Assembly (NCBI RefSeq): GCF_000007185.1
Contig: NC_003551.1
Location: forward strand, 870,001-902,000
Direction: 5' to 3'
Source of the DNA: Methanopyrus kandleri AV19
GTDB lineage: Archaea; JAADCQ01; Methanopyri; Methanopyrales; Methanopyraceae
Length of the DNA: 32,000 bases
The notes under the pieces were generated by a model. That model was not told the DNA's origin. It saw only the letters and a program-made list of their open reading frames with translations, and searched no databases. Below, in pieces: positions 5,561 to 22,306 of this stretch. A program made the position numbers and the translations under genes. Positions within the stretch are counted from its first letter, which is position 1; each line of letters starts with the position of its first letter.

Positions 5561-5581
5561 CGTTCGACCTCCCCTGACGCG

Positions 5582-6508: not shown

Positions 6509-6932
6509 CCCAGGTTACCCGATTATTCATCCAGTAATTCCAGAGTGTGGCGGCGGCGATACCGAAAAGGGCCGAAGCGATATAATAAATATGGAGAAGC
6601 TCGGTCAGCGTCCATAGGACCGCTGTGTTGATCACCAGACCGCCGGCACAGATGATGTTGAAGGCCGCGAGACGCTTTAGGAAGTTCAGCAGACCGGGGT
6701 CTCGACGGTCCCTCCACGTCCATAGATCGTTGAGGATGAAGTTCGATATTATGGAAACTTCAACGGCGATGATGTTCGACACGACGTAGTAGATCCCGAC
6801 GACCTCCGTGAGGAACCACAGGAGGCCTAAATTGACGAACACTCCGGAGAGACCGACGAGTGAGAACTTTAGGAACCTCTCCGGGCCGTCGACGCCCGGC
6901 GTTCGCTCCAGTATGCGGAACAGGATCTTCAA
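6477..6932 (-). CDS. GtrA-family membrane protein
   Basis: 151 aa with four hydrophobic helices and a GtrA-like pattern (KFSLVGLSGVFVNLGLLWFL ... ISNFILNDLWTWRD). TTG start at 6932 with GGTGAT 5 nt upstream. Confidence 0.8.
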   Translation of the reverse strand: MKILFRILERTPGVDGPERFLKFSLVGLSGVFVNLGLLWFLTEVVGIYYVVSNIIAVEVSIISNFILNDLWTWRDRRDPGLLNFLKRLAAFNIICAGGLVINTAVLWTLTELLHIYYIASALFGIAAATLWNYWMNNRVTWGVLLERAHEG

Positions 6933-6956
6933 AGCCCATCACCCGGGGGTCGATCG

Positions 6957-8327
6957 ATGGGGAAGTTGTTCGGCACTTTCGGAGTCCGGGGTGTTGTGGG
7001 CGAGGATCTCACTGAGGACGTCGCCCGAAGGTTGGGACTCGCGTTCGGAACGTACCTCGGAGGTGACGCGGAAGTCCTCGTCGGCGGTGACACCCGGACC
7101 AGCACCGACACTCTCAAGGATGCTCTGATCTCGGGGCTAACCGCCGCGGGCTGCGACGTCGTCGATGTGGGGATCGCACCGACTCCGGCCGTGCAGTACC
7201 TGGTGGACGCCGAGGGGTTCGACGCCGGCGCCGTGGTGACGGCGTCGCACAACCCGCCCGAGTTCAACGGTATCAAGCTGTTGGGCTCGGACGGGTGCGG
7301 ATTGTCCAGGGAAGATGAGCAGGAAATCGAGAGGATTTACTTCGAGGAGAACCCGGATCGGGCCTCGTGGGATCGTGTGGGTAACCGGGTTTCGGCGCCG
7401 GACCTGCTCCTGAACTTCGAGGAGGCCGTACTCGATTACGTGGGTGACTTCGACGGAGAGGGTCTGCGAGTCGTTGTCGACGCGGCGAACGGCGCGGCGT
7501 CGTCGGTCACGCCGCGACTCCTCTCGGAGCTCGGTGTCGAGGTGATCAGTGTCAACGCACATCCGGACGGGCGGTTCCCCGGACGTGAGCCCGAGCCGTC
7601 GGAGGAGAACCTGGAGACTACGATGAACATGGTGAGAGCGGCCGGCGCGGACTTCGGGTTAGCCCACGACGGGGATGCTGATCGACTGATTCTCATCACG
7701 GGTGACGGCGAGTTCGTCCCCGGGGACTACTCGCTGGCGATCGTGGCGGCGTGGGCGCTCGACGAGGGTAAGGGGAGTCAGGTAGTCACCCCGGTCAGCT
7801 CCTCGATGTGCGTACAGAAGGTGGTAGAGGACCGCGGTGGAGAGGTGATCTGGACGAAGGTGGGAGAGCCCGTCGTCGTGGAGGAGCTCAAGCGGGCGGA
7901 GGATCCCGCACTGGGTGGTGAGGAGAACGGTGGAATAATCTACCCGGACTTCCACCTCTCCCGGAACGGAATCATCACCGCCTTGCTGATCTGTAAGCTG
8001 GTCGCCGAGGTGGGATCGCTCGACGACCTACTGGCCGAGGTGCCCAAGTACCACCTGCACAAGACCGGTGTGGAGTGCCCCGACGATCTCAAGCCGAAGG
8101 TCATGGAGCGTGTCGAATCGCTGGTCGAAGAGGAGGAGTTGGAGGATGTCCTGACGATCGACGGCGTGAAGTTGTTCTACGAGGATGGTTGGGTGCTCGT
8201 ACGGCCTTCGGGCACGGAGCCTTTGATCAGGGTCTTCGGAGAAGCGCGAGATCGAGAGACCGCCATCAGGCGGGTGGAGCACTGGAAGGAACGCGTCGAG
8301 GAGATCGTCTCGGAGCTGAAGGGGTAG
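6957..8327 (+). CDS. glmM: phosphoglucosamine/phosphohexose mutase
   Basis: Alpha-D-phosphohexomutase signatures: GVRG near the N-terminus, active-site loop TASHNPPEFNGIK, metal-binding HDGDADR, and C-terminal RPSGTEP. Confidence 0.9.
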   Translation: MGKLFGTFGVRGVVGEDLTEDVARRLGLAFGTYLGGDAEVLVGGDTRTSTDTLKDALISGLTAAGCDVVDVGIAPTPAVQYLVDAEGFDAGAVVTASHNPPEFNGIKLLGSDGCGLSREDEQEIERIYFEENPDRASWDRVGNRVSAPDLLLNFEEAVLDYVGDFDGEGLRVVVDAANGAASSVTPRLLSELGVEVISVNAHPDGRFPGREPEPSEENLETTMNMVRAAGADFGLAHDGDADRLILITGDGEFVPGDYSLAIVAAWALDEGKGSQVVTPVSSSMCVQKVVEDRGGEVIWTKVGEPVVVEELKRAEDPALGGEENGGIIYPDFHLSRNGIITALLICKLVAEVGSLDDLLAEVPKYHLHKTGVECPDDLKPKVMERVESLVEEEELEDVLTIDGVKLFYEDGWVLVRPSGTEPLIRVFGEARDRETAIRRVEHWKERVEEIVSELKG

Positions 8328-9811: not shown

Positions 9812-10053
9812 AACGGCGCGGGTGGAGGTAGCCGGCGGGGAGCGCGGGCTTCAGACCCGAGCCGATGATCCGCCGGATGCCGCGACCGCGCCACACTTCC
9901 TTCTCCTATTGTTACGTATCTTGAAACGTTTCCGTGCGGGTCAGGGGCGGGAGTACTCTTCATCGGTCCGCGGCTTGCATGATCATCATCCCTGGTTCGA
10001 GGCGAATCTCCATCGATAAAACTTCGTCCCTCGTAGGGTCAGGAGGGCGTCAC

Positions 10054-11355
10054 TTGCCCGTCCACGCGGTCGTGGGCTTCGGGTACCCCAAGTACGACCC
10101 GGTGAGCTGGTTCGCGGAGCGTTCACTGATCGAGACACTGGAAGTGAAGACCGCGGAGTCCCGCTGCCTCGAGCTACGCGAGGGGTCGACTCTTCGCCTC
10201 GAGGCCCGGCGCCTCGGTAGGCGTGAGATGAGCGCGACCGCGCTGCTGGAACGCGTCGAAGAACCGGGAGAAGTCCACGTGTTCGCCTCGTCCTCGCTGA
10301 AGGGACAGACGGTCGATGGTGACACGGTGGAGGATCGTATGGGTGAGTACCTCGTCGATCCGTTGAACGATGTGGGGTTCGAGGTCGAGGTCCACTGGTC
10401 GTCGGCGTTCGATCCCCTGTCGCTCCTCCCCGAGCTCATCGACACCCTGACACGTCTCGACGATCGCGTGGTGCTGGATCTTACCCACGGTGTTCGTATC
10501 CAGCCCGCGATCTCGGCCGTGGCGGGAATGGCGGCCGCTCGATTGCCGGGCTCAGATATGGAGCTCGTTCCGGTGTACGGGGCCGCAGGGGTTGAGGTGA
10601 GGGAGGTCCTGAGGTGGTCGGACGGTGCGGACGGGTCTCGCGGGATCATCCTGGACATCCGTCGCCACTTGGAGTCCGCCATGGCGTTCAACAAGGTCGT
10701 CGATTACACCTTGGATCCCTCCCGAGAACACCTCGAAGAGCTGTGCGAGCTGACTGAAAGCGCGCTTCGAGAGTTGGACGTCCCCGATGATCGACTGGAG
10801 AGAGTTCGGGAGCTAGTGATCGATGAAGGGGCTCTGAGAGGCCTCGCCGACGCCCTCCGGTCCAACTACCCGCGGAAGGTCGTGAAGGAGGCGAGAAAGT
10901 GGGAACCGAAGTCGCCCGAGGACGTACTCGACAGGCTTCATATAGAAAGTTCCGGGAGGGAGCGGGCCGAGAAGTACCTCCGTGCGCTCTCGAACTTCTT
11001 AGCAAGGGCCCTGAATCCGTTCCTTCAGGGTCTTGACTTACCGAAGTCTCCTTGGAAGGCGGCCGTACAGCTCGCCGAGTGGCTGTGTGATCGCGGTTAC
11101 TACGCGGCCTCGGTTCTGCTGCTCCGAGAGCTCGTGTACCTCAGGACGGTCTACGAGTGGGCCGAGGAGCACGGCCACGGGGAGCTGAAGGAGGTCGTCG
11201 AAGAGTACCTCAGGGCCCTCATCGATCCGGACGCGAGAAAACCCAGGGGAGTCTACGACGAGTTGTGCAGCACCATCGAAGAGGTTACCGACGGGGAGGC
11301 CGGGGATCCCGACGATTTGGTCAGGAAGATCGAACGGGAGATACTCAACCGATGA
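10054..11355 (+). CDS. CRISPR-associated DxTHG-motif (CARF, Csx1-like) protein lacking a canonical HEPN R-x4-6-H motif
   Basis: VVLDLTHGVRIQP (D-x-T-H-G encoded at 10477-10491), preceded by a Rossmann-like beta-alpha N-terminal half and followed by a long helical C-terminal half. I place the start at TTG 10054, which has GGAGGG 6 nt upstream. The ORF-track start 9934 adds 40 unlikely residues. Confidence 0.65.
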   Translation: MPVHAVVGFGYPKYDPVSWFAERSLIETLEVKTAESRCLELREGSTLRLEARRLGRREMSATALLERVEEPGEVHVFASSSLKGQTVDGDTVEDRMGEYLVDPLNDVGFEVEVHWSSAFDPLSLLPELIDTLTRLDDRVVLDLTHGVRIQPAISAVAGMAAARLPGSDMELVPVYGAAGVEVREVLRWSDGADGSRGIILDIRRHLESAMAFNKVVDYTLDPSREHLEELCELTESALRELDVPDDRLERVRELVIDEGALRGLADALRSNYPRKVVKEARKWEPKSPEDVLDRLHIESSGRERAEKYLRALSNFLARALNPFLQGLDLPKSPWKAAVQLAEWLCDRGYYAASVLLLRELVYLRTVYEWAEEHGHGELKEVVEEYLRALIDPDARKPRGVYDELCSTIEEVTDGEAGDPDDLVRKIEREILNR

Positions 11356-11530
11356 TCTCTTTCACTTTCTTCACCAGATTCTGTGCCTTCTCGTCTGGCC
11401 TCCCAACGTCTTCCCTTACGTGTGCGAATGAGTTACGGACATCCCTGATTTCACACACCACCTCGATAAGCTCTCGCCGGTCGATCGAATAGTCGATTTC
11501 CCTTCTCTTCCCCCGGAAGAGACCGATCAC
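11345..11530 (-). CDS. 61-aa ORF carrying a Csx1/Csm6-type HEPN catalytic motif (possible gene fragment or minimal HEPN)
   Basis: Encodes ...CEIRDVRNSFAHVREDVG... The R-N-x-x-x-H motif lies at 11420-11437. GTG start, with an in-frame stop 6 codons upstream, so the ORF cannot be longer. Convergent with the CARF gene and overlapping it by 11 nt. Confidence 0.35.
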   Translation of the reverse strand: MIGLFRGKRREIDYSIDRRELIEVVCEIRDVRNSFAHVREDVGRPDEKAQNLVKKVKEIIG

Positions 11531-11698
11531 GGCCGGACCCCCGCGACGTCAGGCATCCTCGGCGTTAGACCCGCTTCGATCTTCGGAAGATACGACAGTG
11601 TGAGATGTGCTCGTTCGGCGTGGTTCGGGAGGTGGCTGTGAATGGGTTCACGACTCATCGGACCGGAATTGTTACAAATTTAATAACGATTTGGGATT

Positions 11699-11801
11699 TG
11701 GCGCCGCGGCCCGGACTTGAACCGGGGACCACGGGATATCTGCGGCCCTCTCTTCATCGGGCCTTAACAGTCCCGCGCTCTACCTACTGAGCTGCCGCGG
11801 C
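11699..11801 (-). tRNA. tRNA-Asn(GUU) with 27-nt intron at 37/38, encoded CCA, C at position 8
   Basis: Manual fold: acceptor GCCGCGG/CCGCGGC, D arm GCTC-AGTAGGTA-GAGC, anticodon arm CGGGA-CTGTTA[intron 11738-11764]A-TCCCG, T arm CCCGG-TTCAAGT-CCGGG, then G-CCA. The intron contains its own GGCCC/GGGCC helix. Position 8 (nt 11794) is C. Confidence 0.9.
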
Positions 11802-11863: not shown

Positions 11864-12451
11864 ATGGCCGACCCGAGGGTGAGAGTGAAAGTCGTAGGAG
11901 TGGAGAAAGAGGACGTCAGGAAGCGCCTTACATTGCTGCGCCCGGAGCGCGATGTCGACGTGATAGTGGATGGAGTGTCCGGAGTGATGCGTGTGACCTC
12001 GGGGACTACCCGCCTACGCGTCAACGCCGGCGGCTCCGCGTTCCTCTCGTGTTCGGGTAGGATCTCGGAGGATGCAGCGGCAGTGGCTTCAGTGCTCCTC
12101 TCGGAAATCGGCGCGGACCGGAAGGAGATTCCGAGGTTCCTTTCGGCGGCGGTGGAGCTGGGGAGAACTACACCGGGGGGATGCGAGCTGGCGGCGGTTC
12201 TGCGGGGTAAGGACGTGACCGTGAAGTTCCGGAGGGACCCCAAGTCCGGCCGATACGCGCTGAAATCTAGACACGGGGTGCTGGTCAGGCGGACCCGATC
12301 GACGTGTGAGGTGGAGATCCTCGTCACGGTAACGGATCTCGATCGGGTCGTCCGGAAGGCGGGAAGGATCTGGGGACAGCTGGAAGATTTGGCGGGTGGT
12401 GGAGATCCAGAATACGTCCTCCTAAACGTCCTCGACGCACTGGGGAGGTGA
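11864..12451 (+). CDS. hypothetical protein (195 aa)
   Basis: ATG preceded by GGGGGGAGGT. Balanced amino-acid composition, versus the S/T/R/P-rich antisense ORF 11803..12327. The stop overlaps the next gene's GTG (GTGA). Confidence 0.6.
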   Translation: MADPRVRVKVVGVEKEDVRKRLTLLRPERDVDVIVDGVSGVMRVTSGTTRLRVNAGGSAFLSCSGRISEDAAAVASVLLSEIGADRKEIPRFLSAAVELGRTTPGGCELAAVLRGKDVTVKFRRDPKSGRYALKSRHGVLVRRTRSTCEVEILVTVTDLDRVVRKAGRIWGQLEDLAGGGDPEYVLLNVLDALGR

Positions 12452-13326
12452 GGCGACTGAGTTGGGTCCTAGAGATGATCAGGACGCTTCTGTGCATGTA
12501 TGTAGGGGTTCTGATCGCGTCTTACTTAGGGTCCTCCGAAGCGTGTACCCGGTCGTTGCTCCGCGTACTGAAGCCTGTGGTCGGGTCCGGCCTCTACGGT
12601 CACGCCGCGTCGCTATCGGCCCTGAGTTCCTCTGTGGCGCTTTACGCGGCTCAGGACAAGGTGAACTCCACCAGAGAGGCCGTGGGTTTACTGCTCCTCC
12701 TGGCCTTCCCGACTTCCGTAGCGACGGTCCTTCAGTTTTACCTCCCCGTGGTCGTACCCGCCGTGGGCCCGGCGGGTCTCCTTATGATCGGCATATCGGT
12801 CGTGGGCGCCCTACTCACTTCCGCGTTCGGCCGTGTTCTACTACCTGGCCGTGAAGATGGTGATGGGCCGAGTAAGATCACGCTCGTGCGGAACCCTTGG
12901 CGCACTGCCCATAGTGTGTTCCTCAGGGTTGGGCCCGCCGTCGCCTTGGCGATGGTGGCGGTTAAGCTGGGTGAGGGGTACGGCGTGACGGAGTGGGTCG
13001 AGAGATTTCTTCACCCGTTGACTAGGTCCGTTGGACTCCCTTCGGACGCGTCTCTGGTGGTGTTCGGGTGTCTGATCAACGTGGCCGTAGGTGCCGCCTT
13101 AGGGGCAGATCTCTGGGCGTCCGGGAAGCTGCGGATGGAGGATCTGGCGCTCGCGTTGGCGTTCGGTAGGGCCCTTTCTTTGCCGAGGATTAACCTTCAG
13201 TTCCTGTTTCCTCCTGCCGTCACGTTCCTTGGCAAGAAGGGGTTGCTCGGGGCGACCGTCCGCACGCTCGTCGAGACCTTGGCGAACATATCGGTGGTAC
13301 TGGCACTAACGGCGTTTGTTCACTAG
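12448..13326 (+). CDS. polytopic membrane protein
   Basis: ORF track. Multiple A/L/V/G-rich hydrophobic helices. Translationally coupled to the upstream gene (GTGA overlap). Function not recognisable. Confidence 0.6.
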   Translation: MRRLSWVLEMIRTLLCMYVGVLIASYLGSSEACTRSLLRVLKPVVGSGLYGHAASLSALSSSVALYAAQDKVNSTREAVGLLLLLAFPTSVATVLQFYLPVVVPAVGPAGLLMIGISVVGALLTSAFGRVLLPGREDGDGPSKITLVRNPWRTAHSVFLRVGPAVALAMVAVKLGEGYGVTEWVERFLHPLTRSVGLPSDASLVVFGCLINVAVGAALGADLWASGKLRMEDLALALAFGRALSLPRINLQFLFPPAVTFLGKKGLLGATVRTLVETLANISVVLALTAFVH

Positions 13327-14197
13327 GGCCCTGTTTTTTCGTCGGGGTTTCCTTCGGCTCGTACCCGGCCGCCCAGATCAGGGCGCGCGCCAGTAGCTTC
13401 CAGGCTCCCGTGCGTTCGGTCAGTTCCGGGTGCACGCCCAGTAAGACGAACCGACCCCGTGGTTCCCACTTGTCGCCCTTCTTCACGTTGTACCAGCCGA
13501 GCACCATCGCCCAACCACTGACGAGTTCGACGTACTTTCCGAACCCCTGTACGTTGATCCTGACCTCTTTCCCGTCTAGCCAGCACACTTTGTACCATCT
13601 GTTGTCGGAGATGAACACCGACCCGTCTTCCGCGGCCATCCCGGGACCGTTCGCGTAGTAATACTCGTAGACCTTCCCCCAGGTGGACTGCGGGGTGATG
13701 GGGTTCTGCTGGATCAGCACGGAGACGTACCCGTTCCCCCGGTTGCCGTCGATCGCCGTTACGCCGTCCACCACGAGATCCTCGCCGATGGCTCCTCGGT
13801 GCGTCACTCCGGCGTGTAGGTACGCACCCGCGCAGATGCCGACGTACCCGATGCCGAGGTCGATCTGCGCGTGATATAGCAGGTCGATCCAGTCGGGATC
13901 CCAGTGCCACTCGGGATGGTACCCGCCCGGAACGTAGATCACGTCGATGTGGGTGCCTGTGTACGGATCTCGTCCGGTCTCCAGGACGGTCCTCCAGTCC
14001 GACGGTGATGCGTAGGTGATCACGTTAATGTGATAGGTGCCGGCGTAGTTCGCGTTCCAGTACTCGATGGCCCTCAGCGAGCTTTCCACGCAGTTGGACG
14101 CGGCTCCGTCTCCCGCCCACATGGCGACGTTCACCATCGTCGATGAGACAGGGGCTAGGAGCGTCACGATCGCCGTCAGTGCGGGGGTCCACCTCAC
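13220..14197 (-). CDS. exported class-I glutamine-amidotransferase-fold protein (peptidase C26/DJ-1-like) with intact Cys-His-Glu triad
   Basis: GTG start at 14197 with GGGGGTG 5 nt upstream. N-terminal signal-like MRWTPALTAIVTLLAPVSS. Nucleophile elbow YVGICAGAYL and downstream LLGVHPE (the GATase1 'HPE' signature). Confidence 0.7.
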   Translation of the reverse strand: MRWTPALTAIVTLLAPVSSTMVNVAMWAGDGAASNCVESSLRAIEYWNANYAGTYHINVITYASPSDWRTVLETGRDPYTGTHIDVIYVPGGYHPEWHWDPDWIDLLYHAQIDLGIGYVGICAGAYLHAGVTHRGAIGEDLVVDGVTAIDGNRGNGYVSVLIQQNPITPQSTWGKVYEYYYANGPGMAAEDGSVFISDNRWYKVCWLDGKEVRINVQGFGKYVELVSGWAMVLGWYNVKKGDKWEPRGRFVLLGVHPELTERTGAWKLLARALIWAAGYEPKETPTKKQGPSEQTPLVPVPPICSPRSRRACGRSPRATPSCQGT

Positions 14198-14274
14198 GTT
14201 AACACCCCCTCACTCCGCAGCCGGGATCGTTAATCAAACTACGGGAAACACGTTACACCGGTAGGGGACGTGTC

Positions 14275-15705
14275 GTGTCCTTGAGGTCGAAACTGGCCGA
14301 CTTGGCCGGACTCCTCGCGCTCAAGGCGGTTCGGTTCGGGCCCGGTATGGGGCGGAGCTTTCCCGGATGGACCGTGATCAAGGTCGGCGGCTTCGACGCC
14401 GTTCGCGAGCTCGCACGGCGGCCGGAGTACGGAGTGGTGCTGATTACAGGTACCAACGGTAAGACCACGACCACCAGACTCGCCTGTGCGCTCCTAGCCG
14501 AAGATGCGGAGGTTTCGTGCAACTACGATAGTAACACAATCAACGCCGTCACGACGGGCCTACTCAAGGGTAGGAAGGCCGAGCTCGTGGTGACGGAGTA
14601 CGGGATTCGCAGCCGTGAGTACGGGATTCCAGATACCGTCTGCGAGCTCGTGGACCCGCTGGCGATCGCGTACACAACTATCTCGAAGGAACACTTCCGG
14701 GAGAACGCGGACAAGAAGGACCCGTTCGGGGCGTACTTCGAGGCGAAGCGTCTCCTGGCGAGGCCCCTGAAGGACGGTGTGCTGGTGCTCAACGCGGATG
14801 ATCCTCGGGTCACCTACATCCGCGACGAGAAGCGCGGTGACCCCGTGGAGTACGTTTTCTACGGTTTGGAGGTTGAAATCGAGGATCTGACGCCACCGAC
14901 CGAAGAGCTCGAGTGTCCCGCGTGCGGCGGCGAGTTGGACTACGAGACCCGCTACTTTAACCATAAGGGACTGTACTCGTGTCGAGACTGCGAGTTCTCA
15001 CGGCCTGACCCGGACGTCGCCGTGGTAAGGCTAAAGGGCGGCCCGGACGAGTGGGAGGTCACGCTGTCGTACGATGTGACCAACGCCGTGATCGGAGAAC
15101 GACTGGAGGGAAAGGTCACCTATGAGCTACCGCTGCCCGGTCTCCATAACGTCTACAACAGCGTTTGCGCGATCTCCCTGTACCTCGCGGTTACCCCCCG
15201 GCCCGAGGACCCGGAGGGAACGATCCGACGGGTGATCGAAGGGTTGAACCCGCTCGAGTTCATTCCGTCGGGCAGGTTCGAGGTGCTGAACGTGGGTGGT
15301 AAGCCCGTCGGCGTCGGTCAGGGAGACAACGGGGACGCCTTCAAGGCCAACGCGAACCTGATGCTTTCGGTGGCGGGGGATGTAGGGGCCTGTGTGTATA
15401 CCACCCCGGACGAGGGTGAACATCCGATCTTCGAGATGCACAGGATTATCCTCCGAGCTCTCGAACCAGACGAGCTATACGTGTTTCCTGGTAGGGAGTC
15501 CGTGAAGGCCGCGGAAGAGTACTACGAGGAACTGACCGAGGAGTTCGACGCAGAGTTCTACCCTATCCCGCACGAGCGGATGCAGGAGAAAGTCGAGGAG
15601 ATGCGTAGGGTGTGTGAGGAGGCGGATGGTCCCGTGTTCGCCTCCGGGTGCGGGCCGGAGCGCGAGATGTGGGAAGCCCTGAAGAGGGAGCTCAGGGGCG
15701 GCTGA
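14275..15705 (+). CDS. Mur ligase family protein, MurT-like (with Cys4 zinc ribbon)
   Basis: P-loop VLITGTNGKTTTT typical of Mur ligases. CPACGGELDYETRYFNHKGLYSCRDCEF (CxxC-x20-CxxC) sits where bacterial MurT carries its zinc ribbon. C-terminal domain follows. Confidence 0.85.
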   Translation: MSLRSKLADLAGLLALKAVRFGPGMGRSFPGWTVIKVGGFDAVRELARRPEYGVVLITGTNGKTTTTRLACALLAEDAEVSCNYDSNTINAVTTGLLKGRKAELVVTEYGIRSREYGIPDTVCELVDPLAIAYTTISKEHFRENADKKDPFGAYFEAKRLLARPLKDGVLVLNADDPRVTYIRDEKRGDPVEYVFYGLEVEIEDLTPPTEELECPACGGELDYETRYFNHKGLYSCRDCEFSRPDPDVAVVRLKGGPDEWEVTLSYDVTNAVIGERLEGKVTYELPLPGLHNVYNSVCAISLYLAVTPRPEDPEGTIRRVIEGLNPLEFIPSGRFEVLNVGGKPVGVGQGDNGDAFKANANLMLSVAGDVGACVYTTPDEGEHPIFEMHRIILRALEPDELYVFPGRESVKAAEEYYEELTEEFDAEFYPIPHERMQEKVEEMRRVCEEADGPVFASGCGPEREMWEALKRELRGG

Positions 15706-16470
15706 ATGGGGCTGAGGCGCCTCCTGGGGCTAGTCGGGGTCGGGTTGATCGTTCTGTACTTCACTCTACTTTCCGCAGAGTATTCGGAGTTTCAACGCTT
15801 CCTCGGTGATCCGTGGGGAAGAGCCGTTTACGTCAAGTTACACAACCCGGACATCGCTCCGGGTACCCCGCACATCCGAACCCTGGTCGACTTCGCCAAA
15901 CAGCACGGGTACTCCAAGATCCTCGTGATCCACAACGCCGGGAAGATCGGATACAGTCACTTCTGGTATCACGGGATACTCATCATCCAGCTGGGGTGGT
16001 ACGACTACCGCACGGTCTTCGCACAACCCGAGTTGGGGTTGGTGATGGAGGACATCCTCTACGGTCAACGCCCTATGTTGGGTATCTGGATCGCGGATCG
16101 GCGTGAATACCGTAGTATGAGTGAAGCTGTAAACCACGTGCGCGACCTGGAGTCGGCCGTTCCCGGACGTACGATGGTGGTATGGCACGGATCGTGTCGT
16201 AACGGTAACCCACTTTGGAACCTCGGATGTGGTGCGGAACCGTACTTCTGGATCCTCTCGGCGTACGGTGGGCGTGTCCTCGCACTTACCTTCGCCGTTT
16301 TAGGTAACTTCGCCCCTATCGTCTTCTACGGGGATGCGGCGCTGGCGGAGCTCAGGAACTACGACAAGCTCCAGGCGCTGTACAACAGCGGGACCTTGAA
16401 CCGCTACGCCGTAGATCCTTACCTCCGCAAGAAGCCGATGCCGATGGGACCGCGGGGCGTGTACGACTGA
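15706..16470 (+). CDS. N-terminally membrane-anchored protein with Cys/His-containing extracytoplasmic domain
   Basis: The ATG directly abuts the Mur-ligase TGA (TGAATG). One N-terminal TM helix (LLGLVGVGLIVLYFTLL) and aromatic-rich domain containing VVWHGSCRNGNP. Confidence 0.65.
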   Translation: MGLRRLLGLVGVGLIVLYFTLLSAEYSEFQRFLGDPWGRAVYVKLHNPDIAPGTPHIRTLVDFAKQHGYSKILVIHNAGKIGYSHFWYHGILIIQLGWYDYRTVFAQPELGLVMEDILYGQRPMLGIWIADRREYRSMSEAVNHVRDLESAVPGRTMVVWHGSCRNGNPLWNLGCGAEPYFWILSAYGGRVLALTFAVLGNFAPIVFYGDAALAELRNYDKLQALYNSGTLNRYAVDPYLRKKPMPMGPRGVYD

Positions 16471-16476
16471 GAGGGG

Positions 16477-17508
16477 GTGAGGCCGGTGCTGGAGCCGCTC
16501 GCGGAATATCACTCGATCGATGACGATGAACTCGCGGCCCGGTTCATGGTAGCACGGACCCTCCCGGTCGAAACCACGGAGGGGGAGTTAGAGGACCTGT
16601 GGAAGGAGCACGAGGAAGCTATGGAGGAATTTCGCGCGAGGTGGGAGGAGCGTCCCGCACCCGGAGATATCGAGGAGACCTCGCCGAACCTCCTAGACTT
16701 GAAGCTGGAGATCGCTCGGAAGATCCTCCGTGAATGCACGTTCTGCGAGCGGAGGTGTCGGGTCGATCGAACCCGTGAGGACGGGTTCTGTCGGGTTCCG
16801 ATCAAACCCAGGATTTCCTCGGAGTTCCTGCATATGGGCGAAGAACGCGTGCTCGTGCCTTCTCACACAGTGTTCTTCTGCGGGTGTACGTTCCGATGTG
16901 TCTATTGTCAGAACTGGGACATAGCCTTCCGACCGACCAACGGGGTATACGTTAAACCGGAGTCACTCGCCCGGGTGATCCGGCATCGACGATCTCAAGG
17001 TGCCAAGAACGTGAACTGGGTCGGAGGAGACCCCACACCGAACATTCACTACATCCTGGAGGTGCTCAGGCGGCTCGACGTGAACGTCCCGCAGGTTTGG
17101 AACTCCAACATGTACTTGACCGAGGAGGCCATGAGGCTGTTAGACGGCGTTATCGACCTGTACCTGACGGATTTCAAGTACGGCAACGACGAGTGCGCGG
17201 AGAGGTACTCGAACGCCCCGAATTACTGGGAGATAGTGACCCGGAACCACCGTGAAGCGGATCGGCAGTGTGGCCTGATCGTGCGTCACCTCGTTTTACC
17301 CGGTAACGTGGAGTGCTGTACGTTTCCGATCCTGGAGTGGATCGCCGAAGAGCTGGGTACGGACACGCCGTTGAACGTGATGCCCCAGTATCGCCCGGAG
17401 CACCGCGCGTACGAGTACCCGGAGATAAACAGGCGACCGTCCGCGGACGAACTGGAAGAGGCGTGGGAGAAGGCGAGGGAGCTGGGGTTCCGATACTACC
17501 GGCTTTAG
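16477..17508 (+). CDS. radical SAM enzyme, PflX-like (pyruvate formate-lyase activase homologue family)
   Basis: [14 protein letters not shown] (CxxxCxxC), preceded by the Cys-rich [21 protein letters not shown] segment typical of COG1313/PflX. The start may be the second GTG (16486), which has better spacing to GGGGGTGAGG. Confidence 0.8.
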
Positions 17509-18422
17509 AGGGATTCGTGAACTTTACCCGGTTCCGGTAGGCCGAGCTCCTTCCGCTCCTCGATCTCCTTCTGGTTCTTGTTCTTCTTCACCTGGGCGAG
17601 CTTTTGAATGAGACCGAGACCTGGCTTGACCTCCTCGATGCTCTTAACCTCCAGCAGACCCTGCTCCACCATGTCGTCGAGGATCTCCTTGGCCTTCTCC
17701 GTCCGCACGATCACGGTGCTCCAGCCGTCCGGTGAACCCACCGAGCCGGCGGTTAGATCGGAGAGCTCGGCGCAGTAATCCGTGCACACGTGGCACGGTT
17801 CACCCTCGAAGGGGTGCGTTTCGTCGATCGGGATCGACTTCACCTCGCCGTCCTTCGTGTACACCCAGAACTTACCGTTACCGATGTCCATCTTGGTGAC
17901 CTCACGTATCCACACGCCGCAGAGCTGCTCGATGATGGTCTTCATACCCTCGTACGGGAAGTTCTCCATGCAGATGATCCCTATCAGTAGCTCGATCTTG
18001 TCCGGAACGTGCCTCATCCCGATCGGGCAGAGCTGTGCCTTACGGACGGCCCGGATCTGACACGGAGTCCCGACCATCGCTACTTTCTCGCAACCGTAGC
18101 TCCTCACGGCCTCCTTGAGGACGCTCACGTTGGGACAGTACGTGTACTTGGTTCCGGCTGCCTCCAGGACCTCGTCCGGGTCGGTGATGACCACTGGGCG
18201 TGGCTTCCAAGGCTCCTCGGGGTCGTCCGGGTCCGCGACGGCGGCGATCACGCCGTCGAACAGTCCCTCTTCAAGGCCGTAGATCATGACGGCGGAGGCG
18301 ATACCTCCGTCCTGGGTGACCTTCGTGACCTTGCGCTCGGTCGAGCGGGCCGTGAACACGCCGAGGTGGTCTCCCAGCAGCTCTGGATCGCCCTTAACCA
18401 TGATCTCATCCAACTTGCTCAT
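17505..18422 (-). CDS. fruB: F420-reducing hydrogenase beta subunit
   Basis: FrhB-type sequence (GVFTARS..., [31 protein letters not shown]..., [16 protein letters not shown]). Starts 2 nt after the gamma-subunit stop. Confidence 0.9.
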
Positions 18423-18424
18423 GG

Positions 18425-19117
18425 TTACTCACCCCCCATGATTAGCTCCTTGATGGCCTCGTCACCCGGCCAGATCGTCCTCGGGCACTGCGTGAAGCAC
18501 GCACCACACTTGATGCACCGGTTCTCGTTCACCACCGGTCTGCCGTCCACGATCTCGATCGCCCGCGTGGGGCAGGCCGCCGCGCAGGTGCCGCATCCCA
18601 TGCACATGCTCTTGTTCACCACGTGGTACATCAGGTCGCAGCCGCAGTACTCCGTCTTACCTTCCGCCAGCTTCGCGAACGGCTCGAGCAGCTCCTCTTT
18701 ACCCTCCAGAAGGAGCGTCAGGAACCGCTTGATAGCCTCGGGGGCTGGTGGACATCCCGGGACGGCGTAGTCGACGTCCGCCACCTCCGTGAGTGGCACG
18801 AACGCCTCGTGCGTGGGAGCCGCCTGCTGGTTCCCCCGCGAGAGTCGCATGAAGTTCCCCGTACTCGCGCACGCACCTAGTGCCACGATCGTGTCGGCGT
18901 GCTCCTCCAGCTCCTCCACTTCCTCCAGCATGTGCTCGTCGTTAAGGCACACCGCACCTTCTACTACGGCCACGTCGCACTCGGGGATCTCGCGCTCGTC
19001 CATGAGGGTCTGACAGTAGACCAGCTCGATGGAGTCCAGTATATCCAAAAGCCGCTCGTACGTGTCGGTTAACGACACCAGACACCCGCAGCATCCGGCC
19101 AGCTGCACGTAGGCCAC
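18425..19117 (-). CDS. fruG: F420-reducing hydrogenase gamma (small) subunit; start revised to GTG 19117
   Basis: The conserved small-subunit core starts at [17 protein letters not shown]-terminal 2x[4Fe-4S] motifs [12 protein letters not shown] and [12 protein letters not shown]. The 73 upstream codons of the track ORF (18425..19336) run through the fruA 3' UTR/SECIS and are P/F/G/R-rich low-complexity sequence. Confidence 0.8.
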
Positions 19118-19174
19118 ATCGCATGATGACCTCGGCGTACTCTTCGTTTTCGCCCTCGATAGCCTTCTCCACCA
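19116..19174. repeat. 59-bp perfect direct repeat, copy 1 (immediately upstream of fruG start)
   Basis: acatcgcatgatgacctcggcgtactcttcgttttcgccctcgatagccttctccacca is identical to 19450-19508. It extends to 63 bp with one mismatch (T19175 vs C19509). Confidence 0.9.
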
Positions 19175-19296
19175 TCGGACCAACCCAACACCCCCGAAGG
19201 GGAAGAAAGGTGGGAAGAACGGGAACGTCGGGAACGTAGGGTCAAGGGTGCCAAGGGTGAGGTGAGGAAACCGGCCCCCCACGTGGGGGGCGGTCG

Positions 19297-19331
19297 CGCC
19301 GCGGGTCCCCGTTTCGGGGTTCCCCGCGGCG
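19297..19331 (-). promoter_or_regulatory. archaeal-type SECIS element in fruA 3' UTR
   Basis: Minus-strand RNA 5'-CGCCGCGGG-GAA-CCCCG-AAA-CGGGG-A-CCCGCGGCG-3'. This gives a 9-bp GC helix, an asymmetric internal loop (GAA on the 5' side, A on the 3' side), a 5-bp helix and a 3-nt apical loop. It starts 19 nt after the TAA. Confidence 0.75.
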
Positions 19332-19350
19332 GTCATCCCGATAGTCGGTT

Positions 19351-20601
19351 TTAGGCGAGCTTAACTACCGACTCCCGGATCTTCTCCCGGGAGTCGGCGT
19401 CGCGGACTTCCTTCACCACGTGAGCGGCACACGATGCTCATATGTCGTAACATCGCATGATGACCTCGGCGTACTCTTCGTTTTCGCCCTCGATAGCCTT
19501 CTCCACCACCGGGAAGTTCCACGTGGAAGCCGCGATGATGCGATAGTCCTCGACGATACCCTTCTCGTTCACCTTAGCGATGTGCACGTTGGTGCCCCGT
19601 GGGGCCTCGTGAACTCCGATTCCGACTCCTGCCTTCGGCTCCCACTCGGCCAGGGTCTTGCCGCTGGTGTTGAGTTCATCCAGGATCGTCATCGCCCGGT
19701 CGATGGCCGCGAGTGTTTCCTGTGACCTTAACACGTGGATGTACAGGACTCCGCGTGGGTCCACCCCGTCGAAGAGTATGTACCTGGCTCTGGGTCCGAC
19801 TTCCACCGGAACACCGTCGTAAAGCGGGATCTGGCCCCGGTGCTGGTACGCGACTTCCTTGTGCTCCTCTCCGTAGTACTCGATCGGAAGCAGCTCCACC
19901 ACGCGGTCCATGTCCAGCCGGTCGGGATCCCCATAGGTGGGATGCGTCGCCAGGAACGGCTGGTCGTGTCTGCCGAACTCGTCGATGTCGAGGTCGTTCT
20001 CGTCGCCGAACCTCTCGACGATGTTCACCATGAACTCGTGCTGCTCCATCATCAGCTCGCGCGCCTCACGTAGCCTGCGGTAAAGCTTCCTACGCGCGGC
20101 TTCCGAGATGTTCTCGGCCATCCCTCCGATCCTGATGTTGGGTGGATGGATTCCCTCACCTCCGACCACGTCCACCACGTACTGTCCGATCCGCCTGATC
20201 TGCTGGATCCTCTTGACCGCCTCGACCTTCTCGCTCTCATCCTCAACGAAATCGTCCAGTACTAGCAACTGATGGAGCACGTGAGACTGAATCCTGTTAC
20301 CCAGGGCGCAGAGTTCCCGCAGGAGTTTCCCGTCCTTGGGAGGTTCGATGCCCATGGCCCGCTCGAAGGCCTCGGCGGATGCGGTTCCGTGCGTCGCCTG
20401 GCAGATTCCGCAGATCCTCATAACGGCCACCTGAACGAACTCCGCGGGCCTTCCCTTCGCCAGCGCTTCGAAGCCTCGGACCGCCGAAGTGTTCAGGTAA
20501 AACGCACGCTCCACGTAACCCTCGTCGTCGACATATAATACTAGCTTAGCGTGACCTTCATGTCTCGTGGTCGGTTGAATCTCCACGGCACCTTCCGCCA
20601 A
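19351..20601 (-). CDS. fruA: F420-reducing [NiFeSe] hydrogenase alpha subunit, selenocysteine at UGA 19438-19440
   Basis: TTG start with GGGGGTGAGG upstream. N-terminal Ni-site motif [10 protein letters not shown]. The track ORF ends ...[11 protein letters not shown]. Read-through gives U-ASC-AAH (DxUxxCxxH) plus a 22-aa tail and TAA at 19351-19353. SECIS lies just downstream. Confidence 0.85.
19450..19508. repeat. 59-bp perfect direct repeat, copy 2 (inside fruA, codons [19 protein letters not shown])
   Basis: Identical to 19116-19174, offset 334 bp. It ends 10 nt before the Sec codon. Confidence 0.9.
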
Positions 20602-20644
20602 CGCCTCACCCCCATCGGCCCGTCCCGACGGCCACGGAAGAAGA

Positions 20645-20653
20645 ACATAAAAC
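20645..20653. promoter_or_regulatory. TATA-like element in fruA / radical-SAM divergent spacer
   Basis: ACATAAAAC (minus strand GTTTTATGT) is the only AT-rich block in the 58-bp spacer. It lies ~45-50 nt upstream of the fruA TTG. It is too close to GTG 20660, which suggests the plus-strand gene starts further downstream. Confidence 0.35.
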
Positions 20654-20659
20654 TCGGGT

Positions 20660-22306
20660 GTGTTCAGTGATCGAGTAGAGGCACATTTAACGGTTGAATA
20701 CCCTGTCCGTCCGACGACGAGAGGGTTACGCGGATTGAGTCAAAGTGTCTTGATAGTAGACGCGCTGGGCGCAGGGAAGGGGTGGAGGACTAGATCCAGA
20801 GACGTTATCGGGGCGGGTCCTAGGACCGTCGCATCGCTACTGGAAAGTGATTATGAAGTATCGTTGATTACTTATGAAGATCTGCAGAAATTAGGACTAG
20901 ATAGTGTTATGGATTACGATACCGTAGGTGTCAGTATAATGACCGGCGACGAGCGGGCCGCCCGGAGGATGTTCGACCACACACGTTCTCGGACGTTTCG
21001 GTTCATCGGTGGTCCCGGAGCCGCCGATCCGAACGCACTCCTCAAGACTGGAGCCGACGCGGCCGTGATCGGTGAAGCCGAGGAGACCCTACCTGAACTC
21101 TTGGAGGAGCGTGGACCCGTCCGCGGCGTGTACTTCCGGAGGGGAACCGAGGTGGACTTTCCGGGTCCTAGGCCCATTTCCAGGCGATTCACCCGGGTCA
21201 ATCCGGAGTACATCCGTGCCTACGCACACCGATGGGCCGCACGCGTTTACGTCGAGATCGTCCGCGGGTGCAGCAACTCCTGCAGGACGACCTTCGAACT
21301 GCCCGACGGCCGCAAATGTTCGGGATGTGGGAACTGTCGGGAGGGTGAAGGTGGGGAGCGATGGGAATGTCCCGAAGGTATTCCACCGGGTTGCGGGTTC
21401 TGTTCGGTACCCTCGATCTTCGGGCCGACCAGGTCGAGACCGTTGAACGAAGTGGTGCGGGAAGTACGGGGGCTCGTCCGGGAGGGGATCCGTCGGGTAG
21501 TTCTCAGCGCCTCCGACGTACTGGATTACGGTCGGGGCGACTTACTGACTGATCCTCGGACTCCGCCCCCGAACGTCGAGGCCTTAAGGCGCCTCCTGCG
21601 ACGAACATCGAAGCATGTGGACGTGCTCTTCGTCGAGAACGTGAAAGCGTGCTTATTGAACCGTGAGATCGCGGAGCTCCTCGGTGAGTACTGCCGCGGT
21701 ACCTCGGTGAGCGTAGGTGTGGAGACGGGAGACCCGAGGCTGCTCCGCGCGATCGGGAAACCCTCCACGTTGAAGGAGGCGTTGCGTGCGATCCGTCTCC
21801 TGCGGAGGGCCGGTTTACGGCCTCATGCCTACTTCGTGTACGGACTACCCGGGCAGACGATGAAGTCCGCGAAACTCACGGCTAAAGCCATGAAACGAGC
21901 CGTCGAGATGGGAGCCGAGAAGATCACCGTGTACAGGTTCCGACCGATTCCCGCCTCGGCCTTCGGAGATTTCCCTCCGGGTCCCAGTCCACGTAACGAC
22001 GAGGCGAGCCGGCTCATTGCGGACACGGCGCGTCGTTTGAACGAGGCGCTGAAACGTAGGATGATCGGCAAGAGAATCCGCGTATACGTCGCCGAGCCCG
22101 ACCTACGCCGGCCTCGGGACGCGATAGGTTGGCCGGTGAAAGGTGGTCCGAAGGTTCGGCTTAAGGGAGCTCGGGAGTTAGTCGGCACGGAATGTGAGGT
22201 AGAAATCACGGGAGTAGTGTCGGACAAGGTGGTCTCGGGTAAAGTAGTGAGGATACTGGAAGAGATCGACGTGGAGGCGTTAGAGGGACGAGGGGTTCCT
22301 GGCTGA
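20660..22306 (+). CDS. radical SAM protein with N-terminal B12-binding-like domain and C-terminal TRAM-like domain; Cys-rich insertion inside the CxxxCxxC motif
   Basis: Rossmann-like N-terminus (VLIVDALGAG..., VGVSIMTG). VEIVRGCSNSC[37-aa insert]GFCSVPS. TIM-barrel-like middle region (VVLSASDV..., VSVGVETG). C-terminal IGKRIRVYVAE...GTECEVEITGV resembles TRAM. The true start is uncertain (possibly TTG 20750). Confidence 0.8.
   Translation: MFSDRVEAHLTVEYPVRPTTRGLRGLSQSVLIVDALGAGKGWRTRSRDVIGAGPRTVASLLESDYEVSLITYEDLQKLGLDSVMDYDTVGVSIMTGDERAARRMFDHTRSRTFRFIGGPGAADPNALLKTGADAAVIGEAEETLPELLEERGPVRGVYFRRGTEVDFPGPRPISRRFTRVNPEYIRAYAHRWAARVYVEIVRGCSNSCRTTFELPDGRKCSGCGNCREGEGGERWECPEGIPPGCGFCSVPSIFGPTRSRPLNEVVREVRGLVREGIRRVVLSASDVLDYGRGDLLTDPRTPPPNVEALRRLLRRTSKHVDVLFVENVKACLLNREIAELLGEYCRGTSVSVGVETGDPRLLRAIGKPSTLKEALRAIRLLRRAGLRPHAYFVYGLPGQTMKSAKLTAKAMKRAVEMGAEKITVYRFRPIPASAFGDFPPGPSPRNDEASRLIADTARRLNEALKRRMIGKRIRVYVAEPDLRRPRDAIGWPVKGGPKVRLKGARELVGTECEVEITGVVSDKVVSGKVVRILEEIDVEALEGRGVPG

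What the first reader, a model, noticed from the sequence alone, without database searches (positions are those of the whole stretch)
13220..17508. MurT-like ligase operon without a GatD partner: candidate pseudomurein peptide-modification/cross-linking module
In bacteria the zinc-ribbon Mur ligase MurT works with the cytoplasmic amidotransferase GatD, encoded immediately downstream. Here a MurT-like ligase (14275-15705: GTNGKTTT P-loop, CxxC-x20-CxxC ribbon) is instead followed by two different genes. The first has zero spacer (TGAATG) and encodes a TM-anchored extracytoplasmic Cys/His protein (15706-16470). The second follows 6 nt later and encodes a PflX-type radical SAM enzyme (16477-17508). 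The only amidotransferase-fold gene is divergent (13220-14197) and carries a signal-like N-terminus, so it is unlikely to be a cytoplasmic GatD equivalent. In an organism inferred to make pseudomurein (gamma-Glu and epsilon-Lys isopeptide bonds, with poorly defined late steps), this four-gene arrangement is a plausible and, to my knowledge, uncharacterised wall-peptide module.
Basis: partly seen in the sequence, partly recalled or inferred. Interest (0 to 1): 0.7.

Follow-up and report, generated by a model that had tools for sequence, protein, structure and literature searches.

The report
Known orphan MurT-like ligase, lineage-specific neighbours
The region really does encode a MurT-like cell-wall-type ligase without its usual GatD partner, but this ligase clade was already described in 2025, and the three neighbouring genes stay next to it only in Methanopyrus relatives, so a four-gene pseudomurein module is not supported.

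Summary
The sequence observation holds.

The ligase belongs to the "MurT-like" clade that Lupo et al. (2025) named and reported as GatD-less. That clade is restricted to the pseudomurein orders Methanopyrales and Methanobacteriales. It shares MurT's missing N-terminal domain and its zinc ribbon. It lacks MurT's GatD-docking domain (DUF1727) and has a C-terminal domain of its own.

The divergent gene encodes a confident class-I glutamine-amidotransferase fold with an invariant Cys and His-Pro-Glu behind a signal peptide. It is therefore not a cytoplasmic GatD substitute.

- Five Methanobacteriales loci carry the ligase alone.
- The 254-aa and 325-aa proteins were found only in Methanopyrales.
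- The radical SAM enzyme belongs to a large archaeal family, with close relatives in Nanoarchaeota and Methanomassiliicoccales that sit in unrelated contexts.
- Tight spacing is normal in this window.

The block is conserved within Methanopyrales, across one inversion.

Verdict: a known orphan ligase with lineage-specific neighbours. Interest is low to moderate.

The parts
12448..13326 (+). Gate-domain (PF07670) polytopic membrane protein. It is the fifth member of the block conserved in Methanopyrales. Its 3' end overlaps the 3' end of the next gene by 107 nt.
   Evidence: Pfam Gate 9.4e-10. Several hydrophobic segments. Present next to the block in L085, L086, L091 and L092, with convergent overlaps of 89-104 nt.
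13220..14197 (-). Secreted class-I glutamine-amidotransferase-fold protein, 325 aa. Candidate nucleophile elbow GICAGA (Cys122, nt 13832-13834). Invariant His256-Pro-Glu258 (nt 13424-13432). Signal-peptide-like N-terminus and a disordered Pro-rich C-terminal tail.
   Evidence: No Pfam hit. Found only in Methanopyrales, with two longer paralog groups. Invariant C122, H256, P257 and E258 in 17 sequences. AF2 pLDDT 82, pTM 0.81. Foldseek matches to class-I GATase domains at 2e-8 to 1e-4, including GatD.
14198..14274 (.). 77-bp divergent intergenic region between the amidotransferase-fold gene and the ligase gene. It must hold both promoters.
   Evidence: Sequence read directly. No archaeal promoter tool was available, so promoter positions are not determined.
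14275..15705 (+). MurT-like Mur-family ligase, 476 aa. P-loop at nt 14449-14472. Cys4 zinc ribbon at nt 14914-14991. Family-specific C-terminal domain (residues about 300-476) with invariant GQGDNGDA (15316-15339), PGRES (15487-15501) and GCGPE (15646-15660).
   Evidence: Pfam Mur_ligase_M 3.4e-18. NCBIfam pMurC 86 bits against a 560 cut-off, MurT 76 against 800. Orthologs only in Methanopyrus and Methanobacteriales. PDB profile hits: 6vr7 1.8e-30, MurT 4e-27 aligned from MurT residue 2. No DUF1727. Motif coordinates.
15706..16470 (+). Methanopyrales-only orphan protein, 254 aa, with one N-terminal transmembrane helix and a His-rich conserved domain of unknown fold.
   Evidence: No Pfam or NCBIfam hit. 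Only 5 homolog clusters, all from Methanopyrus or unnamed assemblies. Hydropathy peak 2.33 at residues 3-27. AF2 pLDDT 47. No PDB sequence or fold match.
16477..17508 (+). Activase-like radical SAM enzyme, 343 aa. CX3CX2C at nt 16885-16908. Additional N-terminal Cys motif C-x2-C-x3-C-x11-C at nt 16735-16791. Member of a large archaeal family.
   Evidence: Pfam Radical_SAM 8e-18 and Fer4_12 3.6e-9. Below every NCBIfam equivalog cut-off. 470 clusters at 50% identity with E<=1e-30. Named relatives in Nanoarchaeota and Methanomassiliicoccales. Different contexts elsewhere.

Best explanation
The core of the finding is a stand-alone MurT-like ligase. It belongs to the clade already named by Lupo et al. 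2025.

**Shown**
- It is a two-domain Mur-family enzyme with a P-loop and a Cys4 zinc ribbon.
- Like MurT, it has no N-terminal nucleotide-binding domain.
- Its C-terminal domain is not MurT's GatD-docking domain.
- Its named orthologs occur only in the two pseudomurein-making orders.

**Inferred mechanism**
- Like all Mur ligases, it probably uses ATP to turn a substrate carboxylate into an acyl-phosphate, which an amine then attacks.
- Because it lacks the UDP-binding domain, as MurT does, the substrate is probably a late or lipid-linked pseudomurein precursor.
- The most likely target is the free alpha-carboxyl of a gamma-linked Glu, the same chemical setting MurT acts on.
- Because there is no GatD and no docking domain, the nitrogen donor is not channelled glutamine-derived ammonia. 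It is either free ammonia or an amine or amino acid bound by the family-specific C-terminal domain.

**The neighbours**
The ligase needs no partner encoded next to it. The three neighbouring genes are lineage-specific neighbours kept by synteny in a very compact Methanopyrales genome. They are a secreted amidotransferase-fold Cys-His-Glu protein, a membrane-anchored orphan, and a broadly distributed activase-like radical SAM enzyme. They are not a conserved pseudomurein module.
For: **Ligase identity**
- best relatives are MurT and pMurC. FolC and cyanophycin synthetase score far lower.
- the family profile aligns with S. aureus MurT from MurT residue 2. In pMurC the match starts about 100 residues in.
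- no DUF1727 or Mur_ligase_C signal in the C-domain.
- P-loop, four ribbon cysteines and C-domain motifs are invariant.

**Distribution**
- and PMC11915815: the clade is in Methanopyrales and Methanobacteriales only, and species with only MurT-like have no GatD.

**Ligase works alone**
- five Methanobacteriales loci with unrelated neighbours.
- tblastn finds no partner homologs there.

**Neighbours**
- the two orphan proteins are Methanopyrales-only at this sensitivity.
- the radical SAM family is large, occurs in non-pseudomurein archaea, and is never beside a Mur ligase in the loci examined.
- 13 of 18 same-strand junctions are 24 nt or less (median 3 nt), and convergent genes overlap.
Against: - The five-gene block (Gate, GATase-like gene, ligase, 254-aa gene, radical SAM) is kept in all four additional Methanopyrales loci examined, representing three lineages beyond the window. 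Ligase identity falls to 68% and partner identity to 55-67%. The block survives an inversion relative to the Frh operon. Some lineage-specific functional link is therefore not excluded.
- Two of the neighbours are predicted envelope proteins, which fits a wall theme.
- The word-indexed homolog search could miss very divergent Methanobacteriales counterparts of the orphans.
- No biochemical data exist for any MurT-like enzyme, so both substrate and nucleophile are inferences.
Confidence: 0.6

Rival explanations
1. The ligase, the membrane-anchored 254-aa protein, the radical SAM enzyme and the divergent secreted amidotransferase-fold protein together form a lineage-specific pseudomurein peptide-modification or cross-linking module.
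For: - The block is conserved in every Methanopyrales locus seen, including across an inversion.
- The three plus-strand genes are tightly packed.
- Two members are predicted envelope proteins.
- The ligase clade is restricted to pseudomurein archaea.
Against: - No co-conservation outside Methanopyrales.
- The radical SAM family is common in non-pseudomurein archaea, in unrelated contexts.
- Tight spacing is the window norm.
- Paralogs of the amidotransferase-fold protein sit among housekeeping genes.
- Within-order synteny is expected by descent alone.
- The ligase would be cytoplasmic and two of the partners extracytoplasmic.
Confidence: 0.15
2. The MurT-like ligase is a fifth amino-acid-adding stem-peptide ligase. 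It could add a branch residue, or attach the peptide to the glycan. It would not be an amidation-type enzyme.
For: - The C-terminal domain is strongly conserved and family-specific, with many invariant polar residues. That is the domain that binds the incoming amino acid in Mur ligases.
- The family profile scores slightly better against pMurC (6vr7, 1.8e-30, alignment extending to position 418) than against MurT.
- The pseudomurein stem needs more amide bonds than the four assigned pMur ligases make. This last point is from my own knowledge of the Hartmann and Koenig pathway as summarised in PMC10117817.
Against: - Lupo et al. report that Methanobacteriales may have only MurT/GatD, only MurT-like, or both. 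That patchiness fits a dispensable or interchangeable modification better than an essential stem-building step.
- The enzyme lacks the N-terminal domain that the stem ligases use for the UDP-linked substrate.
Confidence: 0.25
3. The ligase has a non-wall role. It could modify a cofactor or other carboxylate, as the Mur-family enzyme CfbE does for F430. The radical SAM neighbour would then belong to the same cofactor-type pathway.
For: - There is precedent for a Mur-family ligase in cofactor synthesis (CfbE; PMC10117817).
- The block lies next to the Frh hydrogenase and a B12-radical SAM gene in Methanopyrales.
- In Methanothermobacter the ligase follows CobN-type chelatase genes.
Against: - The clade is absent from methanogens without pseudomurein (PMC11915815), which share those cofactors.
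- The CfbE model scores only 15 bits.
- The Frh and CobN adjacencies are not shared between orders.
Confidence: 0.1

Closest known systems
MurT-like clade of Lupo et al. 2025 (mSystems, PMC11915815)
   Same: A Mur-domain ligase nearest to MurT. It is found only in Methanopyrales and Methanobacteriales and has no GatD. Methanopyrales carry exactly one such gene. The window protein is 92% identical to a Methanopyrus sp. protein and 40-48% identical to Methanobacteriales orthologs.
   Different: Nothing in kind. The paper does not describe the gene neighbourhood: it never mentions radical SAM, and its genetic-environment section does not cover this locus. It also does not mention the missing DUF1727.
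MurT/GatD lipid II isoglutaminyl synthase (S. aureus, S. pneumoniae; PDB 6gs2, 6fqb)
   Same: P-loop central domain, a Cys4 zinc ribbon inserted in it, and no N-terminal Mur domain. The alignment starts at MurT residue 2.
   Different: No DUF1727 C-domain. No GatD gene adjacent. Scores 76 bits against the 800-bit equivalog cut-off.
pMurC pseudomurein peptide ligase (Mfer336, PDB 6vr7; Subedi et al. 2021, PMC10117817)
   Same: An archaeal Mur ligase from pseudomurein organisms with the same zinc-ribbon insertion. It is the best profile hit in the PDB, 1.8e-30, with the alignment running into the C-domain.
   Different: pMurC has an extra N-terminal domain of about 100 residues. The window protein scores 86 bits against the 560-bit cut-off. 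[quoted passage not shown]
Class-I glutamine amidotransferase domains (CTP synthase, GuaA, HisH, GatD). From my own knowledge, also the related gamma-glutamyl hydrolase type of Cys hydrolase.
   Same: The 325-aa protein has the fold, a Cys at a strand-to-helix nucleophile elbow, and an invariant His-Pro-Glu.
   Different: It is secreted rather than cytoplasmic. It carries a large beta-rich insertion (residues about 146-253), giving TM-scores of only about 0.45. No Pfam GATase model detects it. It is restricted to Methanopyrales and has paralogs there.
Glycyl-radical-enzyme activases (PflA, NrdG) and the AmmeMemoRadiSam radical SAM enzyme
   Same: CX3CX2C motif, the Radical_SAM plus Fer4_12 architecture, and best PDB hits to PflA.
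   Different: It is below every equivalog cut-off, for example NrdG2 at 45 bits against 131. It has an extra N-terminal region of about 120 residues with a Cys motif. No candidate substrate enzyme is nearby.

Membership tests
MurT (lipid II isoglutaminyl synthase subunit) | Mur ligase central domain with an ATP-binding P-loop | tested here: met
   Pfam Mur_ligase_M 3.4e-18. GTNGKTTT at residues 59-66, invariant.
MurT (lipid II isoglutaminyl synthase subunit) | Cys4 zinc ribbon inserted in the central domain | tested here: met
   C214, C217, C236 and C239 are invariant. They align with the MurT ribbon cysteines.
MurT (lipid II isoglutaminyl synthase subunit) | No N-terminal Mur (UDP-binding) domain | tested here: met
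   Profile positions 6-270 align with 6gs2_B residues 2-267.
MurT (lipid II isoglutaminyl synthase subunit) | C-terminal DUF1727 domain that docks GatD | tested here: not met
   No DUF1727 hit in any of 17 members at E<=1. The C-domain alone has no Pfam or PDB match.
MurT (lipid II isoglutaminyl synthase subunit) | Adjacent or co-occurring GatD (CobQ-type glutaminase) | tested here: not met
   No such gene in the window. Lupo et al. report no GatD in species that have only MurT-like.
MurT (lipid II isoglutaminyl synthase subunit) | NCBIfam equivalog score cut-off | tested here: not met
   76.1 bits against an 800 cut-off.
MurT-like clade (Lupo et al. 2025) | Closest to MurT, confined to Methanopyrales and Methanobacteriales, without GatD | tested here: met
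   All named hits among the top 120 are Methanopyrus or Methanobacteriales. MurT is among the best PDB and NCBIfam relatives. No GatD in the window.
MurT-like clade (Lupo et al. 2025) | Placement inside the clade in a phylogenetic tree | not tested
   No tree was built. Membership is inferred from 92-40% identity to Methanopyrus and Methanobacteriales orthologs, and from the paper's statement that Methanopyrales have a single MurT-like gene.
pMurC pseudomurein ligase | NCBIfam equivalog cut-off and a three-domain architecture with an N-terminal domain | tested here: not met
   85.7 bits against a 560 cut-off. The match to 6vr7 starts at chain residue 102, so the N-terminal domain has no counterpart here.
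GatD / class-I glutamine amidotransferase (for the 325-aa protein) | Class-I GATase fold with a Cys nucleophile and His(-Glu) | tested here: met
   Foldseek 2e-8 to CTP synthase 2 glutaminase and 1.6e-5 to GatD 6fqb_E. C122, H256 and E258 are invariant. The triad geometry in the model was not inspected.
GatD / class-I glutamine amidotransferase (for the 325-aa protein) | Cytoplasmic location next to its synthase, and a recognisable GATase sequence model | tested here: not met
   Signal-peptide-like N-termini with AxA-type sites across the family. Paralogs have Big_1-like or TM C-termini. No Pfam GATase hit.
Glycyl-radical-enzyme activase (PflA/NrdG type) for the radical SAM protein | CX3CX2C radical SAM core with an activase-type Fer4_12 region | tested here: met
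   Pfam hits. CTFRCVYC at residues 137-144.
Glycyl-radical-enzyme activase (PflA/NrdG type) for the radical SAM protein | Equivalog-level match, or a cognate glycyl-radical enzyme nearby | tested here: not met
   All NCBIfam scores are far below cut-off. No glycyl-radical enzyme in the window.

The most novel reading that the evidence does not exclude
The secreted class-I amidotransferase-fold protein (invariant Cys122, His256, Glu258) is transcribed divergently from the MurT-like ligase and kept beside it throughout Methanopyrales. It could be an extracellular gamma-glutamyl hydrolase or transpeptidase acting on the gamma-Glu isopeptide bonds of pseudomurein. It would form a gamma-glutamyl thioester and pass the acyl group to water or to a Lys or Orn amine. 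Together with the ligase and the 254-aa membrane protein, it would be a Methanopyrales-specific wall-remodelling or cross-linking set, an alternative to the transglutaminases proposed for Methanobacteriales.
Probability: 0.08. Interest if true: 0.75.

Novelty: already known. Interest (0 to 1): 0.3.

Why it matters
The late and modifying steps of pseudomurein synthesis remain unassigned, and the MurT-like ligase is a legitimate candidate for one of them. Its biochemical function is still unknown. That point is already in the literature.

This analysis adds three things:
- The ligase has lost, or never had, MurT's GatD-docking domain, and has its own strongly conserved C-terminal domain.
- It works without any conserved neighbour.
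- The attractive four-gene operon is a Methanopyrales-only arrangement, so it should not be used to infer the ligase's function.

The secreted amidotransferase-fold family is a small lead of its own.

Tried and rejected
**Searches that led nowhere**
- Two genome-contig scans. The single-protein patterns found no relative. Neighbourhoods were taken from exact-protein contig look-ups instead.
- Literature searches for PflX plus radical SAM, and for pseudomurein with ornithine or amidation, added nothing beyond the two pseudomurein papers.

**The 254-aa protein**
- The AF2 model is unreliable (pLDDT 47).
- A PDB profile search and Foldseek on that model gave nothing significant. Weak tyrosine-phosphatase-like hits were dismissed: the model is poor and Cys164 is not conserved.

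**Ideas rejected**
- Radical SAM relatives of about 800 aa as informative fusions. They carry inteins, not extra functional domains.
- A MurJ-type flippase converging on the ligase in L089 as a shared neighbour. It is absent from the other loci.
- A shared small partner upstream of the radical SAM genes. No similarity was found.
- Paralog contexts of the amidotransferase-fold family as a wall-gene indicator. They sit among housekeeping genes.
- The divergent amidotransferase-fold protein as a GatD substitute. It is predicted to be secreted.


Full report
**1. Observation**

- **Ligase (14275-15705, 476 aa).** It carries GTNGKTTT at residues 59-66. The P-loop and all four cysteines are invariant in 17 orthologs.
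- **Junctions.** The ligase stop and the next start form TGAATG. The radical SAM GTG follows a 6-nt spacer.
- **254-aa protein.** It has one strong N-terminal hydrophobic helix.
- **Radical SAM protein.** It has CTFRCVYC at residues 137-144, plus an upstream C-x2-C-x3-C-x11-C motif. It hits Pfam Radical_SAM and Fer4_12.
- **Composition and origin.** The window is about 60% GC. It encodes the Frh F420-reducing hydrogenase next to the block. The closest proteins are from Methanopyrus.

**2. The ligase**

- **Family scores.** Pfam sees only the Mur ligase middle domain. NCBIfam ranks pMurC first (86 bits against a 560 cut-off) and MurT second (76 against 800). MurF, MurD, cyanophycin synthetase and FolC score far lower. 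It is therefore a MurT/pMurC-type enzyme but a certified member of neither family.
- **Solved relatives.** Single-sequence and profile searches find MurT of S. pneumoniae and S. aureus, and Mfer336 (6vr7). Mfer336 is the pseudomurein ligase pMurC, and its zinc-binding insertion is described in PMC10117817.
- **N-terminus.** The family profile aligns with S. aureus MurT from MurT residue 2. The match to pMurC starts about 100 residues into that chain. The protein therefore shares MurT's lack of an N-terminal domain.
- **C-terminus.** None of 17 family members hits DUF1727, MurT's GatD-docking domain. The C-terminal 177 residues searched alone match nothing in Pfam or the PDB. Yet that region is strongly conserved (GQGDNGDA, YTTPD, PGRxS, GCGxE).
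- **Distribution.** All named proteins among the best 120 homologs are from Methanopyrus, Methanothermobacter, Methanobacteriaceae or Methanobrevibacter.

**3. Literature**

Lupo et al. 2025 (PMC11915815) already split archaeal MurT homologs into MurT and "MurT-like". Their main points are:
- MurT travels with GatD and was acquired from Terrabacteria.
- MurT-like is composed of Methanopyrales and Methanobacteriales sequences and is basal to MurT.
- Methanopyrales have solely one MurT-like gene.
- The origin of MurT-like is "enigmatic".

The central observation of the finding is therefore published. The paper does not discuss the gene's neighbours. It never mentions radical SAM, and its gene-environment section does not cover this locus.

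**4. The neighbours**

*Divergent 325-aa protein*
- It has no Pfam hit.
- Its AF2 model is confident (pLDDT 82, pTM 0.81).
- The model matches class-I glutaminase domains: CTP synthase 2 at 2e-8, then GuaA, HisH, and GatD at 1.6e-5.
- Cys122, in a strand-GICAGA-helix elbow, and His256-Pro-Glu258 are invariant in 17 sequences.
- N-termini across the family look like signal peptides with AxA-type sites. Paralogs end in Ig-like (Big_1) or hydrophobic segments.
It has the amidotransferase fold, and it is unlikely to be a cytoplasmic GatD.
- The family was found only in Methanopyrales, in three paralog groups. The paralogs sit among housekeeping genes.

*254-aa protein*
- It has five homolog clusters: three named Methanopyrus, and two unnamed on the same contigs as Methanopyrales ligase orthologs.
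- It has no family or structure match and only a poor model.

*Radical SAM enzyme*
- It belongs to a large family: 470 clusters at 50% identity with E<=1e-30.
- Relatives at 48-57% identity carry the names Nanoarchaeota, Methanomassiliicoccales and "putative pyruvate formate lyase activating enzyme".
- Many relatives carry inteins inside the radical SAM domain.
- In the two outside lineages examined, it lies beside TldD/PmbA and a metallo-beta-lactamase-fold gene in one, and beside a class-I aminoacyl-tRNA synthetase gene and an AP endonuclease in the other. It is never beside a Mur ligase, and no partner is shared.

**5. Is it a module?**

*Within Methanopyrales*
- The block (Gate-domain membrane protein, amidotransferase-fold gene on the minus strand, ligase, 254-265-aa gene, radical SAM) is present in all four additional loci, L085, L086, L091 and L092.
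- Ligase identity falls to 68% and partner identity to 55-67%.
- In L085, L086 and L092 the block is inverted relative to the Frh operon and the B12-radical SAM gene. It has therefore survived at least one rearrangement intact.

*In Methanobacteriales*
- Five sampled loci carry the ligase alone, each with different neighbours. These are two Methanothermobacter loci, one Methanobrevibacter locus and two unnamed loci. The neighbours are:
  - CobN chelatase and MetRS;
  - Lon protease and ADP-ribosylglycohydrolase;
  - a TGT-domain gene;
  - a MurJ-like flippase plus a PMBR-transglutaminase.
- tblastn with the four neighbour proteins (the three partners and the Gate protein) finds nothing in those loci.

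*Gene spacing*
- 13 of 18 same-strand junctions in the window are 24 nt or less, with a median of 3 nt.
- The radical SAM gene even overlaps the convergent frhB by 4 nt.
- Zero and 6-nt spacers therefore carry little weight here.

It survives only as possible Methanopyrales-specific linkage.

**6. Mechanism**

*Shown*
- An ATP-binding Mur-type central domain with a zinc ribbon.
- No N-terminal domain and no GatD-docking domain.
- Restriction to pseudomurein orders.

*Inferred*
- Acyl-phosphate chemistry, as in all Mur ligases.
- A late or lipid-linked pseudomurein substrate, by analogy with MurT.
- The target is most plausibly the free alpha-carboxyl of a gamma-linked Glu.
- The nitrogen donor is either free ammonia or an amine or amino acid held by the family-specific C-domain.

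*Weighing the options*
- Lupo et al. report a patchy pattern: MurT/GatD only, MurT-like only, or both. This fits an interchangeable modification better than an essential stem-building step.
- I put about 0.6 on the overall reading that the ligase is a stand-alone wall-precursor ligase and its neighbours are not a conserved module.
- I lean roughly 45:30 towards an amidation-type modification over amino-acid addition.

**7. Verdict**

- The core feature is already known.
- The operon inference is not supported beyond one order.
- New details from this work are the missing DUF1727, the unique C-domain, and the secreted amidotransferase-fold family.
- Interest is low to moderate.

Noticed in passing
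window 784-3003 (-), low-GC stretch about 884-3520: A 739-aa polytopic membrane protein lies in a stretch of about 40% GC, with one 1-kb window at 33%, against about 61% for the rest of the window. It has no Pfam hit. It sits next to sugar-nucleotide genes, so it may be a horizontally acquired glycan polymerase or transferase-like gene.
   Followed up: partly
window 4490-8327: Sugar-nucleotide cluster: an NTP-transferase with a hexapeptide domain (GlmU-like), a SIS-domain protein, GtrA, and a PGM/PMM-type mutase (GlmM-like), followed by topoisomerase VI subunit B. Subedi et al. note that GlmM, GlmU and PGM associate in pseudomurein methanogens. The cluster lies 6-10 kb from the ligase and is also present in L091.
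   Followed up: partly
window 9934-11801: A Csx1/CARF-like DxTHG protein (9934-11355) and a 100-nt Rfam tRNA match (11702-11801, minus strand). ARAGORN does not call the tRNA, so it may contain an intron. This segment lies between topo VI-B and the block here. The syntenic locus L091 has only about 0.5 kb at that position, which suggests a strain-specific insertion.
   Followed up: no
window 13220-13326; L085 4941-5029; L091 6010-6104; L092 5883-5986: The 3' ends of the Gate-domain gene and the convergent amidotransferase-fold gene overlap by 89-107 nt in every Methanopyrales locus seen. The overlapped part encodes the low-confidence Pro- and Arg-rich tail of the secreted protein.
   Followed up: no
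P0145, P0149, P0160, P0166, P0173, P0174, P0183, P0206, P0216 (relatives of window 16477-17508): Many relatives of the radical SAM enzyme carry inteins inside the radical SAM domain, several with LAGLIDADG homing endonucleases. Their full lengths are 626-881 aa.
   Followed up: partly
window 17505-22306; L085, L091, L092: The FrhB, FrhG and FrhA genes and a B12-binding radical SAM gene (20660-22306) stay together across Methanopyrales. The ligase block is inverted relative to them in some lineages.
   Followed up: partly
L089 7426-11758; L081 and L087 about 12355-13422: In one Methanobacteriales lineage the MurT-like gene converges on a MurJ/Wzx-type flippase, with a PMBR plus transglutaminase-core protein 2.5 kb away. 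In Methanothermobacter a Glycos_transf_4 (MraY/GPT-type) gene lies 5 kb downstream and CobN-type chelatase genes lie upstream. None of these neighbours is shared between lineages.
   Followed up: partly
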